30,364 nt of DNA, taken from assembly GCF_004010195.1 (NCBI RefSeq), contig NC_057749.1, positions 12,850,254 through 12,880,617 on the forward strand. The letters run 5' to 3'. The notes beneath the pieces are model-generated. The model saw nothing but the letters and a program-made list of their open reading frames with translations, had not been told where the DNA came from and did no database searches. Of this stretch, positions 3,283 through 27,759 are shown piece by piece (the first letter of the stretch is position 1; each line of letters starts with the position of its first letter). The position numbers and the translations under genes are program-made. The stretch is from Chiloscyllium plagiosum (lineage: Eukaryota).

Positions 3283-3379
3283 ACCTCCCATCAATTTAAT
3301 GCATCTCAACAGGCTACATCACATTTAATGCAATAAAATATACCAGGTTATTCTGAGGTGAGGGATTGGCTGAGTGAGG

Positions 3380-3494
3380 GCATGTGCCCGAAACGTCGAA
3401 TCTTCTGTTCCCTAGATGCTGCCTGACCTGCTGTGCTGTTCCAGCAATAAAGTTTCAGCTTTGATCTCCAGCGTCTGCAGACCTCACTTTCTCC
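3380..3494 (+). mobile_element. 5'-truncated Penelope-terminal element (family A)
   Basis: gggcatgtgcccgaaacgtcgaatc...gatctccagcgtctgcagacctcactttctcc matches the copies at 18786 and 27431. The 10-bp direct repeat ctgagtgagg occurs at 3370-3379 and 3495-3504. Confidence 0.8.
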
Positions 3495-4945: not shown

Positions 4946-5130
4946 AGCTGGAGTAATCCAAGATGGAGACAAGAAAAATTTGTGGCCGTATTATTTGCAT
5001 CATTCTGGAATTCTTAAACTTTGGAAGTTCCAACAAGGTGACCACAATGTGGCTTTAAGTTAAAAGCTCATGGTGTCAAGTCTTCTTCCAAAGGGTCAAC
5101 CAAACAAATGTAGGACCACATTGCAGTTAT

Positions 5131-5957
5131 AGAGGGAGCGCTGCACTGTCAGAGTGTCAGTGCTGTGGGAATGCTGCACTGTCAGAGTGTCAGTGCTGAG
5201 GGAGCGCTGCACTGTTGGAGGGTCAGTGCTGAGGGAGTACTGCACTGTCAGAGTGTCAGTGCTGAGGGAGCGCTGCACTGTTGGAGGGTCAGTGCTGAGG
5301 GAGCGCCGCACTGTCGGAGGGTCAGTGCTGAGGGAGTGCTGCACTGTCAGAGTGTCAGTGCTGAGGGAGCGCTGCACTGTCAGAGTGTCAGTGCTGAGGG
5401 AGCGCTGCACTGTCGGAGGGTCAGTGCTGAGGGAGCGCCGCGGGAGCACCGCACTGTCGGAGGGTCAGTGCTGAGGGAGCGCCGCACTGTCGGAAAGGTC
5501 AGTGCTGAGGGAGTGCCACACTGTCGTAGGGTCAGTGTTGAGGGAGTGCTGCACTGTCAGAGGGTCAGTGCTGAGGGAGCGCCGCACTGTCGGAGGGTCA
5601 GTGCTGAGGGAGCGCCGCACTGTCGGAGGGTCGGTGCTGAGGGACTGCCACACTGTCCAAGGGTTAATGCTGAGGGATCGTCACGCTGTCGGAAGGTCAG
5701 TGCTGAGGGACTGCCACACTGTCCAAGGGTTAATGCTGAGAGATCGTCACACTGTCGGAGGGTCAGTGCTGAGAGAATGCCGCACTGTTAGAGGGTCAGT
5801 GCTAAGGGAGTGCCGTACCATCAGACAGTCAGTTCTGTGGGTGTACTGCACTGTCGAGAGTCAGTACAGAAGGAGTGCCGTATTGTCAACAGGGTCTGCA
5901 CTCAGGTAATGCTGCACTGTCAGAGCTCAGTAATGAAAATGTGCCATACTGTTGGAT
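5131..5957. repeat. 33-bp tandem satellite, about 25 units
   Basis: The unit ctgagggagcgctgcactgtcggagggtcagtg repeats head-to-tail and decays toward the right. It produces 11-aa periodic ORFs on both strands. Confidence 0.95.
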
Positions 5958-6545: not shown

Positions 6546-6862
6546 TACACATACCTGCACACATTCACAAACACACAGAACTGCACATACTCAACACCAC
6601 CCCCACCCATGTATGCACAAACACACACTCTCACAGACACACCTCGCTGTTAACTCACAGCCACACAACACATTGTTATAGACACACCTCACTGTCACAC
6701 TCACACACCACATTGCATATCTTCATACAAGCTCCACTGCACATACTCATTAACATGCAACTACACATTCACAAACACAGCTCTCTGCACATACTCACAA
6801 ACACACCTCACTGTACGCTTATGGACATACCCAACTGCTCACATTCACAGACACAGCTCACA
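6546..6862. repeat. Degenerate CA-rich low-complexity tract
   Basis: Recurrent cacacattcacaaacacac, ctgcacatactca and gacacacctcactgt motifs. Confidence 0.8.
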
Positions 6863-6869
6863 AAAGCAG

Positions 6870-8280
6870 TGGATTGAAGGAGTGTCTTGAGGAAAGAGAA
6901 TTAGAGAGGGAATTTCAGAGATTAGTGGCCAAGCAGCTCAAAACCTGGTCAAAAATGGAAGAGCAATTTCCCCCGGTCCTCATCTTCCACCCCATTTATC
7001 TCCAAATACAGTGCATTATCCTTCGCCATTTCCGCCACCTACAATCAGACCCCACAACCAGACATATATTTCCCTCTCCACCCCTAACAGCATTCCGCAA
7101 AGACTATTCCCTCCTCGACTTCTTCGTTAGGTCCGTGCATCCCCCCACCCCCACCAATCCACCCTCCACTCTCAACACCTTCCCTTGCCACCACACCTCT
7201 CCACTCACCTCTGTCCAAGACCCCAAAAGATCCTTCCACATCCAGCAGAGATTTTCCTGCACATCCAAACACCTCATATACTGTGTCTGTTGCTCTTGAC
7301 GTGGTCTCCACTACATTGAGGAGGCAGGATGCCAATTTGTGGAACATTTCAGGGAACATCTCTGGGACACATACATCAAACAACTCCACTGAGCTGTGGC
7401 CAACTACTTCAACTCCCCCACTCCGTCAACAATATGCAAGTCTTGGGCCTCCACCACTGCCAAATCCTAGCCACCTGACGATTGGAGGAAGAACACCTCA
7501 TCTTCTGCCATGGGACTCTCCAACTACACGGCATCAACGTCAATTTCATCAGTTTCCTCATTTCCCCTCCTCTCACCTCATCACAGACCCAACCCTCCAA
7601 CTCGGTATTGCCCTCTTGAATTGTCCTACCTGTCCATCTTCTTTCCCACTGATCTGCTCCACCCTCCACTCTGACCTATCACCATCACCCCCCCCCACCT
7701 GTATCTACCTATCACCTTCCCAGGTACCTTGCCCCCAGCCCCACCCCCAGCCTCCTACTTATCCCCCCCATCCCATAATTAATGAAGGGCTAATGTCCGA
7801 AATATCAATCCTCCTGCTCCTTGGATGCTGCCTGACCTGTTGTGCTTTTCCAGTGCCACACTTTTCGACTCTGGAGCAACTAAACTCCAGTCTGCTCAAC
7901 AGAACAGGAAGAAAGCACAGAGATCCTGAAGTTTTATAGGTTTGGAAAAGGTTACAATGATAAGGAGGGACAATATCATTGATGGCTTCAAAAACAAGGA
8001 TGAGAATCTTCAAACTGAGGCTGTGCTTTACTGAAAGTTAATGTAGCTCAGCAAACCCAGGGGGTGAGAGGTGTAACAGGGTTGAGTGAGAGTTAAGAAA
8101 TGAATAGCAGAGTTTTGGATGACCTCAAGTTAATGAAGGATAGAATGGGAGCAGCCATCGGTGCAATGGAATCCTCATGTCTGCAGGTATCAATGTGTGA
8201 ACATGGTTCAGCAGTAAGTGAGCTGAGACGGGAGAGAGTCAGGTGAACTCGTGGAAATTGGAAAAGACAATCTTAGTCAG
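6870..8280 (-). mobile_element. L2-type LINE 3' remnant, split by a Penelope insertion
   Basis: Minus ORF 7759-8013 begins KILILVFEAINDIVPPYHCNLFQ (cf. the L2 motif FKIL.LVFK.LHGLAPPYL..LL). gagcaa is present on both sides of the nested PLE (6961-6966 and about 7874-7879). Confidence 0.7.
6967..7873 (+). mobile_element. Penelope-like retroelement 3' portion (GIY-YIG endonuclease remnant plus terminal repeat, family A)
   Basis: Translates to PVLIFHPIYLQIQCIILRHFRHLQSDPTTRHIFPSPPLTAFRKD...FSCTSKHLIYCVCCS*RGLHYIEE...FREHL, with stops. It ends in aatgaagggctaatgtccgaaatatc...ggatgctgcctgacctg, a decayed version of the family A hammerhead terminus. Confidence 0.88.
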
Positions 8281-18769: not shown

Positions 18770-18785
18770 GCTCAACTGTGTATTT

Positions 18786-19010
18786 GAGGAGAAAGTGAGG
18801 TCTGCAGATGCTGGAGATCAGAGCTGGAAATGTGTTGCTGGAAAGGCGCAGCAGGTCAGGCAGCATCCAGGGAACAAGAGAATCGACGTTTCGGGCATAA
18901 GCCCTTCTTCAGGAATGTTTGAAGAAGGGCTTATGCCCGAAACGTCGATTCTCCTGTTCCCTGGATGCTGCCTGACCTGCTGCGCCTTTCCAGCAACACA
19001 TTTCCAGCTC
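18786..19010. mobile_element. Fold-back Penelope-terminal element (family A), young
   Basis: 91-bp inverted arms (18821-18911 and 18920-19010, one mismatch) with an 8-nt spacer. The 16-bp direct repeat gctcaactgtgtattt occurs at 18770-18785 and 19007-19022. Confidence 0.92.
18881..18916 (-). ncRNA. Minimal type I hammerhead ribozyme motif (PLE-type, probably dimer-dependent)
   Basis: The minus strand reads auuc-CUGAAGA-a-gggc-uuau-gccc-GAAA-c-GUC-gauu. This gives an intact core, a 4-bp stem II, a palindromic ACGU stem III and a short stem I. Activity is not demonstrated. Confidence 0.7.
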
Positions 19011-19392
19011 AACTGTGTATTTCCCACCTTTTCCCTCATTTTTGGCAGCTATCCCATGATCTCTTGAAAATGTACCAGATTAATCCAGCTTTCAGTTACA
19101 GACCCAGTTTAATATTTCATACTTTTACCAACCAACAGTTTTTTTCTGATTACAACAGTAACATCTTGGAAACATTTTTCTACATTTTTTACATTGACAT
19201 TGTTGTTTACTTTCTATTAATCCTCCCCTACTAAATCTTTCTCATAAGCAGGAAAAGAAGAGAGGAAGTCCAGCTAATGATCGGTTTCATGCTGGTCATT
19301 ATGTGTCTGGAATATTTCTAACACTTCCACAGGATCATGGATTCATTGCAACAAGATGGTGGGACCAAACTCGATGGAGACCATTCTATTGT

Positions 19393-21241: not shown

Positions 21242-21415
21242 TAGGCATAAGTAAGGACTGCAGATACTGGAGATCAGAGTCTAGATTAGAGTGGTGCTGG
21301 AAAAGCACAGCAGGTCAGGCAGCATTCCTGATGAAGAGCTTTTGCCTGAAACATCAATTTTCCTGCTCTTTGCATTCTGCCTGACCTGCTGTGCTTTTCC
21401 AGCACCACTCTAATT
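21242..21415. mobile_element. Fold-back Penelope-terminal element (family A variant)
   Basis: 38-bp perfect inverted arms (21285-21322 and 21377-21414) enclose attc-CTGATGA-agagcttttgcct-GAAA-catc. The 11-bp direct repeat tatacaatgca occurs at 21231-21241 and 21416-21426. Confidence 0.85.
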
Positions 21416-26997: not shown

Positions 26998-27427
26998 ATA
27001 AAGAGCAGGAATCTTGGATGATTTCAGGCTCAACATCACAAGATTGAACATAACCTGATTATTGTAGCCTTTTTATGTCTGAACTACACATTAAGCTCTG
27101 CAGAGCTTCTTTAATTAGAGTTAAAATCAAAATGAACTACAAACAAAGCACTTCTCATGAGGATAATCCATTGTTGTGGTAACACAAAGAGTCTGAACCA
27201 GACTGTTTCAGAAGCCTAATGTGGAGGCAGAATATTAAATACCAGCATCATTTACTCAACAACACTAGCTGTGATCTATCACTCTTTTATCAGCAAGAGT
27301 CACATAAACAATAAAAAAGTTTAAATCTTTTGACTCATTTACGACAGTAATTTTAATTTTTGACTCAGTAAATATATACATTTTGGTGTTTCTTGTTATA
27401 CAGTTAGTTATTAGTTAAGATATTCTC

Positions 27428-27648
27428 AGCTGAAAATGTATTGCTGGAAAAGCGCAGCAGGTAAGGCAGCATCCAAGGAGCAGGAGAATCGACGTTTCGG
27501 GCATGAGCCCTTCTTCAGGAATGAAGAAGGGCTCATGCCTGAAACGTCGATTCTCCAGCTCCTTGGATGCTGCCTGACCTGCTGCACTTTTTCAGCAACA
27601 CATTTTCAGCTCTGATCTCCAGCATCTGCAGACCTCACTTTCTCCTAG
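27428..27648. mobile_element. Fold-back Penelope-terminal element (family A) in the SNX33 intron
   Basis: 90-bp inverted arms (27428-27517 and 27522-27611, about 6 mismatches) with a 4-nt spacer. The 14-bp direct repeat aagatattctcagc occurs at 27417-27430 and 27649-27662. Confidence 0.92.
27487..27522 (-). ncRNA. Minimal type I hammerhead ribozyme motif, sense to SNX33
   Basis: The minus strand reads auuc-CUGAAGA-a-gggc-ucau-gccc-GAAA-c-GUC-gauu. Confidence 0.7.
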
Positions 27649-27759
27649 AAGATATTCTCAGCACCAGTTAACTGGTGCTTTATGACTCTATGGTTGAAAA
27701 GTTCTTGTTTTGAAGCAGAATGAAATTGAACAAAATTTCCAGATTTTATTATTTTCTTT

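What the first reader, a model, noticed from the sequence alone, without database searches (positions are those of the whole stretch)
18770..19022. MITE-like fold-back retro-insertion whose inversion point sits on a hammerhead ribozyme core
Seen: a 225-bp non-coding insert with 91-bp inverted arms (one mismatch), an 8-nt loop and a 16-bp target duplication. The minus arm has an intact minimal hammerhead (auuc-CUGAAGA-a-gggc-uuau-gccc-GAAA-c-GUC-gauu), while the plus arm starts one base inside the CUGANGA box. The arm sequence matches the 3' terminus of the GIY-YIG Penelope fragment at 6967-7873. Established: PLE terminal repeats carry minimal hammerheads and can form inverted termini. Inference: these are ribozyme-bounded minimal PLE insertions, possibly a non-autonomous family. 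The copy at 27428 breaks at the same base (TGAAGA), suggesting the ribozyme structure determines where reverse transcription stops or switches strand.
Basis: partly seen in the sequence, partly recalled or inferred. Interest (0 to 1): 0.72.

Follow-up and report, generated by a model that had tools for sequence, protein, structure and literature searches.

The report
Miniature fold-back Penelope-like retroelement insertion
This hairpin-shaped insert is a dead-end miniature copy left by a Penelope-like jumping gene, built from two head-to-head copies of the element's tail end with its small hammerhead motif; it is one of tens of thousands in this genome and of an already described kind.

Summary
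In detail: 91-nt inverted arms (1 mismatch), an 8-nt centre, a 16-bp target duplication, and a complete minimal hammerhead motif on the minus arm.

It is a single-event insertion of the last ~130 nt of a Penelope-like element (PLE). One arm carries the 34-nt "tail"; the other stops at arm position ~99.

The family is very large: 29,917 exact copies of the 32-nt tail in the 3.56-Gb genome. In a positional sample of 95 resolvable copies:
- 51 are fold-backs. 46 of these have a tail-less partner arm and 44 are framed by one 8-19 bp duplication.
- Arms within a copy match each other better than arms of other copies.
- Arm 5' ends pile up 4 nt upstream of CUGAAGA (69 of 146 at positions 1-8), not at the ribozyme cut site (6 of 146).

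This matches the published PLE signature: an inverted 5'-truncated copy, a tail at one end, both strands cleaved and extended, and two RT start sites.

The claim that the ribozyme fold sets the breakpoint is not supported. A transcript 5' end is more likely, but this is inferred.

The scan has already found the same kind of element elsewhere in this genome. It is a new member of a known kind.

The parts
18770..18785 (.). Left copy of the 16-bp target-site duplication GCTCAACTGTGTATTT
   Evidence: family D1, 100% identical to 19007-19022
18786..18819 (-). 34-nt 'tail' of the long arm (arm positions 134-101, ...GATCTCCAGCATCTGCAGACCTCACTTTCTCCTC on the minus strand). It is present on this arm only.
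   Evidence: A 32-nt stretch of it occurs 29,917 times exactly in the genome. It corresponds to the 30-40 bp PLE tail of PMC8557442 and PMC11167929.
18820..18916 (-). Rest of the long (tail-bearing) arm, arm positions 100-4, ending at ATTCC just upstream of the hammerhead core
18881..18916 (-). Complete minimal hammerhead motif on the minus strand: auuc-CUGAAGA-a-GGGC-uuau-GCCC-GAAA-C|G-UC / gauu. The predicted cut lies between arm positions 35 and 36 (window 18885|18884).
   Evidence: core at 18885-18912, 0 expected by chance. Features checked against the min-HHR description in PMC4209133. No Rfam match.
18917..18919 (.). 3-nt spacer GTT at the inversion point.
18920..19006 (+). Short, tail-less arm, arm positions 9 to ~95-99. 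It begins TGAAGA (hammerhead core lacking C3). 19007-10 (GCTC) is microhomology shared with the duplication.
   Evidence: query 9-99, 98.9%
19007..19022 (.). Right copy of the 16-bp target-site duplication
27431..27648 (.). Second fold-back of the same family. The tail-less arm (antisense) runs 27431-27522 and the tail-bearing arm runs 27522/3-27648. The stem-II loop is UCAU in both arms. The 14-bp duplication is at 27417-27430 and 27649-27662.
21249..21408 (.). Older fold-back of a related family (CUGAUGA core). The tail-bearing arm is cut at about position 53 and the tail-less arm is complete. It is flanked by TATACAATGCA.
3377..3494 (+). Single 5'-truncated arm (starting at stem II) with tail, second subfamily (loop variant AUGU here), flanked by CTGAGTGAGG
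6949..7299 (+). Decayed PLE ORF fragment covering the RT-EN linker and the start of GIY-YIG
   Evidence: 52% identity, pairwise E 1e-38, to residues 243-362 of P0001. P0001 carries GIY-YIG at 355-432 (23.2 bits, cut-off 22.6) and RVT_1 at 1-121 (22.7 bits, below the 29.6 cut-off). Pfam on the window frames themselves gives no hit.
7657..7873 (+). Old, decayed 3' region plus tail-less arm of that PLE, on the same strand as the ORF fragment. Its hammerhead core is mutated.
   Evidence: 71% over 229 nt to body plus arm of a young copy (L002), E 3e-22

Best explanation
The insert is one integration event of a Penelope-like element (PLE), reduced to the last ~130 nt of the element.

Inferred mechanism, built on published PLE biochemistry:
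1. The PLE enzyme made two nicks staggered by 16 bp.
2. Each 3'-OH primed reverse transcription on the same template RNA. One primed at the outer RT start site (arm position 134, giving the 34-nt tail). The other primed at the inner start site (position ~99, tail-less).
3. Both cDNAs ran to the 5' end of the RNA, which lies about 4 nt upstream of the hammerhead core. This is most likely the transcription start of the promoter in the pseudo-LTR.
4. The two cDNA 3' ends were joined through a template jump or 2-3 nt microhomology. The self-complementary hammerhead sequence offers such microhomology.

The result is a head-to-head fold-back framed by one target duplication.

The copy lacks the sequence upstream of the presumed transcription start and any ORF, so it is probably dead on arrival. 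Within a transcript of the fold-back, the hammerhead would be locked in a ~90-bp hairpin.

Shown here: the structure, the family, the single-event duplication, the tail asymmetry, the same-template arms and the 5' hotspot. Inferred: that both primers use one RNA, and that the 5' hotspot is a transcription start.
For: (1) PLE origin. The arm lies 3' of and on the same strand as an RT-linker-GIY-YIG ORF remnant in the window. In 16 of the 30 best genome matches the arm continues upstream into one shared sequence; 2 of those are partly masked.

(2) Single event. 44 of 51 sampled fold-backs are framed by an exact 8-19 bp direct repeat, mode 14-15. Here the repeat is 16 bp.

(3) Two start sites, one per arm. 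In 51 fold-backs ascertained by a tail, the partner arm ends at positions 89-104 in 46, carries a tail in 3 and is shorter in 2. P(<=3 of 51) is 1e-11 if tails were independent at 0.5. A second listing not ascertained by tail gives 10 of 14 head-to-head pairs with one tail, 3 with none and 1 with two, while 44 of 72 unpaired arms have a tail. Published: the tail is the sequence between the two RT start sites, the PLE protein cleaves and extends both strands (PMC11167929), and the tail is often at one end only with an inverted 5'-truncated copy adjacent (PMC8557442).

(4) Same template. Stem-II loop variants are concordant in 32 of 32. Within-copy divergence is 1.44% against 3.74% between copies, with 0 of 2000 shuffles as low (sf1, n=30). 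68 variants are shared by both arms against 31 in one arm only.

(5) Two independent cDNAs rather than a copy of one. The tail-less arm reaches further 5' in 24 fold-backs, the tailed arm in 19, and they are equal in 8. Junctions show AGG/CCT or GAA/TTC overlaps and short templated fillers.

(6) 5' hotspot. 69 of 146 arm ends fall at positions 1-8, and 17 of 36 single copies end there. In one search the listed 'before' loose ends fell at the same places (L002 1502, 1503 and 1511 in X15; 1502 in X19; 1504 in X1), alongside a larger class at 1595 that I attribute to a diverged subfamily.

(7) Transcription-start reading. TTTTATC sits at -32..-26 and CTCATTCC matches the initiator consensus (recalled), with identical spacing in both subfamilies. 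A TSS within the pLTR is reported for Penelope and Chlamys-3 (PMC8557442 passage).
Against: - No RNA evidence for a start at ATTCC. In a polyA single-cell RNA run, depth over the arm relative to the upstream body (~5x) mirrors that of DNA-like contigs (~5.5x), and no pile-up of read starts or ends was reported. That library is poorly suited to mapping starts.
- Some arms extend 1-2 nt beyond ATTCC and match the body sequence (C, TC), and 10 of 146 continue upstream. The boundary is therefore not absolute.
- 'One RNA, two primers' is inferred. Two sister RNAs from one locus would give the same data.
- The sample covers only the first 9.8 Mb of one contig. It was ascertained by an exact 32-nt tail, so it favours young, tail-bearing copies. 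Alignment ends are uncertain by 2-5 nt where microhomology exists.
- Recurrent junction types (for example the same AGG/CCT junction in 5 copies) could partly reflect amplification of fold-back units.
- The coding part of young copies is masked (N) in the loci, so the young family's ORF was not seen directly.
Confidence: 0.8

Rival explanations
1. One reading: the folded (or protein-bound) hammerhead acts as a template boundary, so the reverse transcriptase stops or switches strand at the ribozyme whatever the length of the RNA.
For: 5' ends and inversion points cluster sharply at the 5' edge of the motif: 69 of 146 at positions 1-8. The cluster is seen in two subfamilies and in an older family. 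PLE RTs are relatives of telomerase RT (PMC8557442 abstract), which uses template boundary elements (recalled). No RNA start at ATTCC was seen.
Against: The enzyme has already copied the whole motif when it stops, whereas a structural block should act before the structure. The cut site is not a hotspot (6 of 146). For the Anolis PLE the text reports that 5' truncation of the template RNA shortens the product, which I read as run-off at the RNA's 5' end, and that hammerhead core mutants change neither insertion activity nor band size (PMC11167929). 10 of 146 arms read on upstream.
Confidence: 0.15
2. Snap-back: a single cDNA folds back on itself at the palindromic hammerhead region and copies itself, so the second arm is a copy of the first.
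For: The arms of a copy are near-identical. Junctions use 3-nt self-complementary sites with 5-nt loops. Very short inverted fillers occur at some single copies, such as AGCCC in L033.
Against: The arm that starts internally often carries the tail while the arm that reaches furthest 5' lacks it (24 of 51), and a copy cannot contain a tail that its template lacks. The distal ends of partner arms cluster at positions 95-101 (36 of 51) and often show microhomology to the target, as expected for separate priming at a defined site.
Confidence: 0.07
3. The fold-backs are a self-propagating non-autonomous family (hairpin SINE- or MITE-like units copied as a whole from master fold-backs), not by-products made anew.
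For: Copy number is very high. Identical junction types recur. L063 and L116 share an arm-specific CpG change. L053 and L086 show an identical complex structure.
Against: Many junction types occur within one subfamily; the 10 UAAU-loop copies have at least 6. Distal ends are set by a start site, not by truncation of a master. Single arms with the same 5' end and their own duplications are about as common (36 against 51 of 95). Duplication length is variable at 8-19 bp, and the arms differ by the tail, which rules out a transposase-type MITE. The units begin at the presumed +1 and lack the upstream promoter-like sequence.
Confidence: 0.08

Closest known systems
Canonical EN+ Penelope-like element insertion units: pseudo-LTR, adjacent inverted 5'-truncated copy, and a 30-40 bp 'tail' at one end. 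Craig et al. 2021, PMC8557442 (passages read); Frangieh et al. 2024, PMC11167929 (main text read).
   Same: An inverted copy abuts the 5' end. A 34-nt tail is on one arm only. There are two discrete 3' ends about 34 nt apart. A variable-length target duplication is present. The hammerhead sits near the 3' end, and an RT + GIY-YIG ORF lies upstream in longer copies.
   Different: Both copies are cut down to ~90-130 nt, so the whole unit is a 221-bp hairpin. Truncation is not random but peaks 4 nt upstream of the hammerhead. The passages I read do not state that the two arms of one event use different start sites, or that they share one template.
Minimal hammerheads (min-HHR) of metazoan PLE pseudo-LTRs. 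Cervera and De la Pena 2014, PMC4209133 (parts 1-2 of 4 read).
   Same: CUGANGA and GAAA boxes, a GUC site, the extra base after the first box, a G10.1-C11.1 pair, no helix III loop with the palindromic ACGU, and a short helix I. Thousands of dispersed copies occur. That paper also notes pairs of motifs 100-700 bp apart on opposite strands.
   Different: Helix II is only 4 bp here. Helix I has a U-U mismatch in this subfamily but is a perfect 4 bp in the second subfamily. Activity is untested. In the fold-back the motif is sequestered in a hairpin.
L1 twin priming (Ostertag and Kazazian 2001; recalled, not read here)
   Same: The second target strand primes reverse transcription on the RNA. 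This gives an inverted segment inside one target duplication, joined by microhomology.
   Different: In L1 the inverted segment is a different, upstream part of the RNA and the internal priming site varies. Here both arms cover the same region, the second priming site is fixed (~position 98), and about half of the insertions are of this type.
Non-LTR retrozymes, proposed as non-autonomous PLE derivatives. Li, Clavereau and Pollet 2026 preprint, 10.64898/2026.07.22.740005 (abstract and passages read); Cervera and De la Pena 2020, PMC7229834 (listing only).
   Same: Short non-coding units with a PLE-type hammerhead, related to the pseudo-LTR, in high copy number in non-mammalian vertebrates.
   Different: Retrozymes are head-to-tail tandem repeats bounded by ribozyme cut sites and give circular RNAs. 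These units are dispersed, single or head-to-head, and are not bounded by the cut site. One head-to-tail joint contig was seen but not followed up.
MITEs (miniature inverted-repeat DNA transposons)
   Same: Small size, terminal inverted repeats, a target duplication, and a hairpin-forming transcript.
   Different: The arms are a retroelement 3' end. The arms are unequal (tail). Duplication length is 8-19 bp and variable. Single-arm copies are equally common, and junctions differ from copy to copy.

Membership tests
Penelope-like element (EN+, canonical) | Single ORF with RT followed by a C-terminal GIY-YIG endonuclease, upstream of the terminal region on the same strand | tested here: met
   Window 6949-7299 aligns (52%, E 1e-38 pairwise; 1.9e-28 in the database) to residues 243-362 of P0001. 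P0001 has GIY-YIG at 355-432 (at the cut-off) and RVT_1 (below the cut-off). The arm homologue follows at 7657-7873. The caveat is that this is an old relative; the young family's ORF is masked in the loci. Pfam on the window frames themselves gives nothing.
Penelope-like element (EN+, canonical) | Inverted 5'-truncated copy adjacent to the 5' end of the insertion | tested here: met
   Present here and in 51 of 95 sampled copies within 45 nt, plus 8 more within 400 nt
Penelope-like element (EN+, canonical) | Optional 30-40 bp tail, often at one end only | tested here: met
   A 34-nt tail is on the left arm only. The partner is tail-less in 46 of 51. 10 of 14 pairs have one tail.
Penelope-like element (EN+, canonical) | Partial tandem copies forming pseudo-LTRs around the ORF | not testable with these tools
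   Coding parts of long copies read N in the loci, and no tandem unit fell in the sample
min-HHR (PLE minimal hammerhead) | Core boxes CUGANGA and GAAA and a UH cleavage triplet in type I order | tested here: met
   CTGAAGA...GAAACGTC at 18885-18912 (-), 0 expected by chance
min-HHR (PLE minimal hammerhead) | Extra unpaired base between 9 and 10.1; G10.1-C11.1 pair; palindromic 15.2-16.2 with no loop 3; helix I of 4-5 bp | tested here: met
   Read: CUGAAGA-a-GGGC uuau GCCC-GAAA-CG-UC. Helix I is auuc/gauu with 3 pairs and a U-U mismatch; it is 4 pairs (auuc/gaau) in the second subfamily. The criteria come from PMC4209133.
min-HHR (PLE minimal hammerhead) | Self-cleavage (as a dimer) | not testable with these tools
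   No assay was possible. No read ends piled up at the cut site, but that library is unsuited to the question.
Rfam hammerhead families | Covariance-model match | tested here: not met
   No hammerhead hit at gathering score or at E <= 10. This is expected for a motif without a helix III loop.
MITE (DNA transposon derivative) | Equal terminal inverted repeats, a fixed-length target duplication, and a constant unit | tested here: not met
   The arms differ by 34 nt. Duplications are 8-19 bp. Junctions vary. 36 of 95 copies are single arms.
Non-LTR retrozyme | Head-to-tail tandem repeats bounded by hammerhead cut sites | tested here: not met
   No tandem arrays were found among 95 copies. 6 of 146 ends lie near the cut site.
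L1-type twin priming | The inverted part comes from a different, upstream RNA segment, and the internal priming site is variable | tested here: not met
   Both arms cover the same segment, and the distal end is fixed at positions 89-104 in 46 of 51. It works like twin priming but is not the L1 form.

The most novel reading that the evidence does not exclude
Each fold-back records one PLE integration in which the two staggered nicks prime on the same RNA at the two adjacent RT start sites. The 34-nt tail is then simply the offset between the two primers, which explains why exactly one arm carries it. The two minus-strand cDNAs are then paired through the self-complementary hammerhead segment (CCU/AGG, UUC/GAA, stem II). 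On this reading the conserved min-HHR sequence also serves, at the DNA level, as the annealing module that resolves PLE integration. That would help explain why a barely active ribozyme is kept at the 5' end of PLE transcripts.
Probability: 0.22. Interest if true: 0.65.

Novelty: new member of a known kind. Interest (0 to 1): 0.33.

Why it matters
The element itself is ordinary: a dead-end by-product of a known retrotransposon class, and the scan has met the same kind of element elsewhere in this genome.

Its value lies in the numbers. By extrapolation from the sample there are on the order of 15,000 near-perfect 90-bp hairpins and about 30,000 tail-bearing copies. Together they form a natural record of PLE integration events.

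That record agrees in vivo with what was shown in vitro for an Anolis PLE: both strands are cleaved and extended, there are two RT start sites, and the hammerhead cut is not used as a boundary. It adds two testable regularities:
- the two arms of one event almost always use different start sites and the same template;
- the cDNAs end 4 nt upstream of the hammerhead.

In practice, such hairpins are a source of long double-stranded RNA, of miRNA-like false positives and of assembly errors in this genome.

Tried and rejected
- Rfam gave no hammerhead family match, at gathering score over the whole window or at E <= 10 over 401 nt. The weak miRNA-family matches (best mir-4524, 50.6 bits against a cut-off of 68) are generic hairpin matches and I reject them as annotation.
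- Pfam on four reading frames of window 6754-7939 gave no family. The PLE link came only through a database relative.
- RNA evidence: no RNA holder was listed for the window stretch.
- Reads of one polyA single-cell RNA run (X19) laid on a body + arm + flank copy showed depth that tracks DNA copy number. No place was reported where molecules begin or end. A second run (X20) laid nothing. This neither supports nor refutes a transcription start at ATTCC or cleavage at GUC.
I used the printed coordinates instead.
- The incidental arms in the fetched loci were too few for a firm tail frequency among single insertions: 19 arms, 7 single with tail and 7 single tail-less.
- The snap-back and MITE readings were considered and set aside for the reasons given under rival explanations.
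- I did not run an RNA dimer fold of the hammerhead, because it would not be decisive.
- Lunse et al. 2017 (PLE hammerheads cleave as dimers) is not in the library; one search found only papers that cite it, so it is recalled and was not read.
Full report
**Observation**

The region holds a near-perfect inverted repeat with arms at 18821-18911 and 18920-19010: 91 nt, 99% complementary, 8 nt apart. It is framed by a perfect 16-nt direct repeat at 18770-18785 and 19007-19022 (sequence).

The DNA between the duplications is 221 bp. The left side has 35 nt (18786-18820) with no counterpart on the right.

On the minus strand the left arm reads auuc-CUGAAGA-a-GGGC-uuau-GCCC-GAAA-C-GUC-gauu. The pattern CTGANGA-N(6-30)-GAAACGTC occurs twice in the window (18885-18912 and 27491-27518, both minus) against 0.00 expected. 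The plus arm starts at TGAAGA.

As RNA the insert is a single hairpin of -188.4 kcal/mol, z = -28. Rfam finds no hammerhead at gathering score or at E <= 10, only sub-threshold generic miRNA-hairpin matches.

**Coordinates used below**

'Arm' is the reverse complement of window 18786-18919, 134 nt:

| Feature | Arm positions |
|---|---|
| ATTCC | 4-8 |
| CTGAAGA | 8-14 |
| Stem II | 16-27 |
| GAAA | 28-31 |
| GTC | 33-35 |
| Predicted cut | 35\|36 |
| Tail-less end | ~95-101 |
| Tail | 101-134 |

**What it belongs to**

The window's genome is 3.56 Gb in 101,977 contigs.

- A 32-nt stretch of the tail occurs 29,917 times exactly, with 0 for the reversed control.
- A 22-mer at positions ~79-100 occurs 66,051 times.
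- That 22-mer continues into the tail 38,785 times.

Among the 30 best full-arm matches:

| Class | Loci |
|---|---|
| Continue upstream into one shared sequence | 14 |
| Probably continue (partly masked) | 2 |
| End 26 nt upstream | 1 |
| End at ATTCC with their own target duplications | 8 |
| Fold back there | 4 |
| Small direct duplication | 1 |

In the window, an older relative of the arm (7657-7873, 71% over 229 nt to a young copy including its upstream part) lies about 360 nt downstream of an ORF remnant on the same strand. That remnant (6949-7299) aligns at 52% identity to residues 243-362 of a 469-aa database protein. The protein has a GIY-YIG domain at 355-432 and a weak RVT_1 match. 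The arm is therefore the 3' terminal region of a Penelope-like element. The coding parts of young long copies read N in the loci and were not examined.

**A positional sample**

I took the first 100 places of the exact tail 32-mer on contig C1 (0-9.8 Mb), which are listed by position and not by score. Five were dropped because masked N reached the arm (L031, L043, L047, L117, L128).

Of the 95 left:
- 51 have an inverted arm within 45 nt upstream;
- 8 have one at 46-400 nt;
- 36 have none within 400 nt.

Two subfamilies share the tail: sf1 with loop UUAU or UAAU, and sf2 with loop CUGU.

*Single events.* 44 of the 51 fold-backs are framed by an exact direct repeat of 8-19 bp, mode 14-15, lying at both outer ends. 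Single copies show duplications of about 8-17 bp, usually with 1-5 nt of microhomology at the 5' junction.

*Tail asymmetry.* The partner arm's outer end lies at positions 89-104 in 46 of the 51 fold-backs (21 of them at 97-98), at 127-130 in 3, and at 44 or 51 in 2. If tails were independent at frequency 0.5, 3 or fewer of 51 has probability 1e-11.

A listing not ascertained by tail (the first 100 places of the 22-mer) gives 14 head-to-head pairs: 10 with one tail, 3 with none and 1 with two. Among the 72 unpaired arms in that list, 44 have a tail.

Tail-less 3' ends also occur on longer, body-containing copies. All three fold-backs in the window, including the older-family one at 21249-21408, have exactly one tail.

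*Same template.*
- The stem-II loop variant agrees between arms in 32 of 32 fold-backs where both are visible: 13 UUAU, 10 UAAU, 9 CUGU.
- Over positions 40-95, sf1 arms of one copy differ by 1.44% against 3.74% for arms of different copies (n=30; 0 of 2000 partner shuffles as low).
- The 10 sf2 copies are all identical, so they carry no information.
- 68 variants are shared by both arms against 31 in one arm only.

*Junctions.* Junctions differ from copy to copy, including within one loop variant. They show overlaps such as AGG/CCT and GAA/TTC, or short fillers such as GCTTA, AGCCC and CCC that look templated from the stem-II region.

The tail-less arm reaches further 5' in 24 fold-backs, the tailed arm in 19, and they are equal in 8. 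A snap-back copy of one cDNA cannot give a second arm with a tail that its template lacks. Two separately primed cDNAs are therefore the better reading.

*The 5' hotspot.*
- Of 146 arm 5' ends (95 main and 51 inverted), 69 lie at positions 1-8, 6 at 33-38 (around the predicted cut) and 10 continue upstream.
- Of 36 single copies, 17 end at positions 1-8 and only 7 at 0 or upstream.
- In one search the listed 'before' loose ends fell at the same places (L002 1502, 1503 and 1511 in X15; 1502 in X19; 1504 in X1), alongside a larger class at 1595 that I attribute to a diverged subfamily.

But they lie at the 5' edge of the motif, scatter over about positions 2-20 in fold-backs, and avoid the cleavage site.

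**Comparison with print**

- Craig et al. [quoted passage not shown] They also state that in Penelope and Chlamys-3 the pseudo-LTR harbours the transcription start.
- Frangieh et al. 2024 (PMC11167929; main text) show for an Anolis PLE that the protein cleaves and extends both target strands. Reverse transcription starts at two adjacent internal RNA sites, and the tail is the sequence between them. 5' truncation of the RNA shortens the product. Hammerhead mutants do not affect insertion.
- Cervera and De la Pena 2014 (PMC4209133; parts 1-2 of 4) define the min-HHR. The motif here meets its features: the extra base after the first box, G10.1-C11.1, and palindromic 15.2-16.2 without loop 3. They also note thousands of dispersed copies and pairs on opposite strands 100-700 bp apart.

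The fold-back here is therefore the known PLE signature in its smallest form.

In the texts I read, and in searches, I did not find three things: a statement that the two arms of one event use different start sites, a statement that they share one template, or a report of a truncation peak at the hammerhead's 5' edge. This is not a full literature check. Supplements were not read and may bear on these three points.

**Mechanism**

The geometry fits two nicks staggered by the duplication length. The 3'-OH of the left duplication is followed by the antisense tail-less arm. The right duplication is preceded by the sense tailed arm. [quoted passage not shown]

*Why ATTCC?* In both subfamilies TTTTATC lies at -32..-26 and CTCATTCC fits the initiator consensus (recalled), with identical spacing. 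64 of the 73 upstream nt are identical between the subfamilies. With the pseudo-LTR start sites reported for other PLEs, and my reading of the in vitro truncation result as run-off at the RNA end, I take the hotspot to be the transcript 5' end (about 0.55). I give about 0.15 to a ribozyme- or protein-imposed stop. RNA reads could not decide this.

**Verdict**

The PLE, hammerhead and de novo formation parts of the interpretation hold. The idea that ribozyme structure sets the breakpoint is not supported.

The element is a new member of a known kind. Earlier notes of this scan on other windows of the same genome reached the same classification.

Noticed in passing
L044, L053, L057, L066, L067, L082, L102, L105, L111, L129 and other sf2 loci: The second subfamily (stem-II loop CUGU, perfect 4-bp helix I) shows zero differences over arm positions 40-95 within and between all 10 fold-backs compared. 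This suggests a very recent or ongoing burst of this PLE.
   Followed up: partly
window 5114-5909: A stretch open in several frames on both strands, built of a degenerate short repeat (peptide-like SAEGALHCQSV units). It looks like a minisatellite just upstream of the old PLE fragment.
   Followed up: no
window 18786-18919 (-), arm positions 22-102: In the UUAU subfamily an AUG in the stem-II loop opens a 26-codon frame whose UGA stop (positions 100-102) falls exactly at the tail-less boundary. The CUGU subfamily lacks this AUG, so it is probably chance. In the Anolis PLE, however, the ORF starts at stem II.
   Followed up: no
L053 and L086: Two loci on C1 show the same complex structure: an inverted arm spanning positions 1-108, a 140-nt spacer, then body and arm. 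This could be a duplicated segment or a fold-back-capped longer unit that was copied as a whole.
   Followed up: no
L016 (near 1634), L118: Some single copies carry a short inverted or direct duplicate of the target sequence between the duplication and ATTCC. This points to template switching at the 5' junction.
   Followed up: no
L002 560-1369 and 1563-2864: Long ORFs of an unrelated LINE-type element (endonuclease-like and reverse-transcriptase-like sequence) flank the PLE copy. The PLE inserted into or next to a LINE.
   Followed up: no
L002 1595 (arm position ~97): Many reads and contigs match only from position ~97 onward and share a different upstream consensus. The tail region is therefore conserved across otherwise diverged PLE subfamilies, as expected if it holds the RT entry site.
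   Followed up: no
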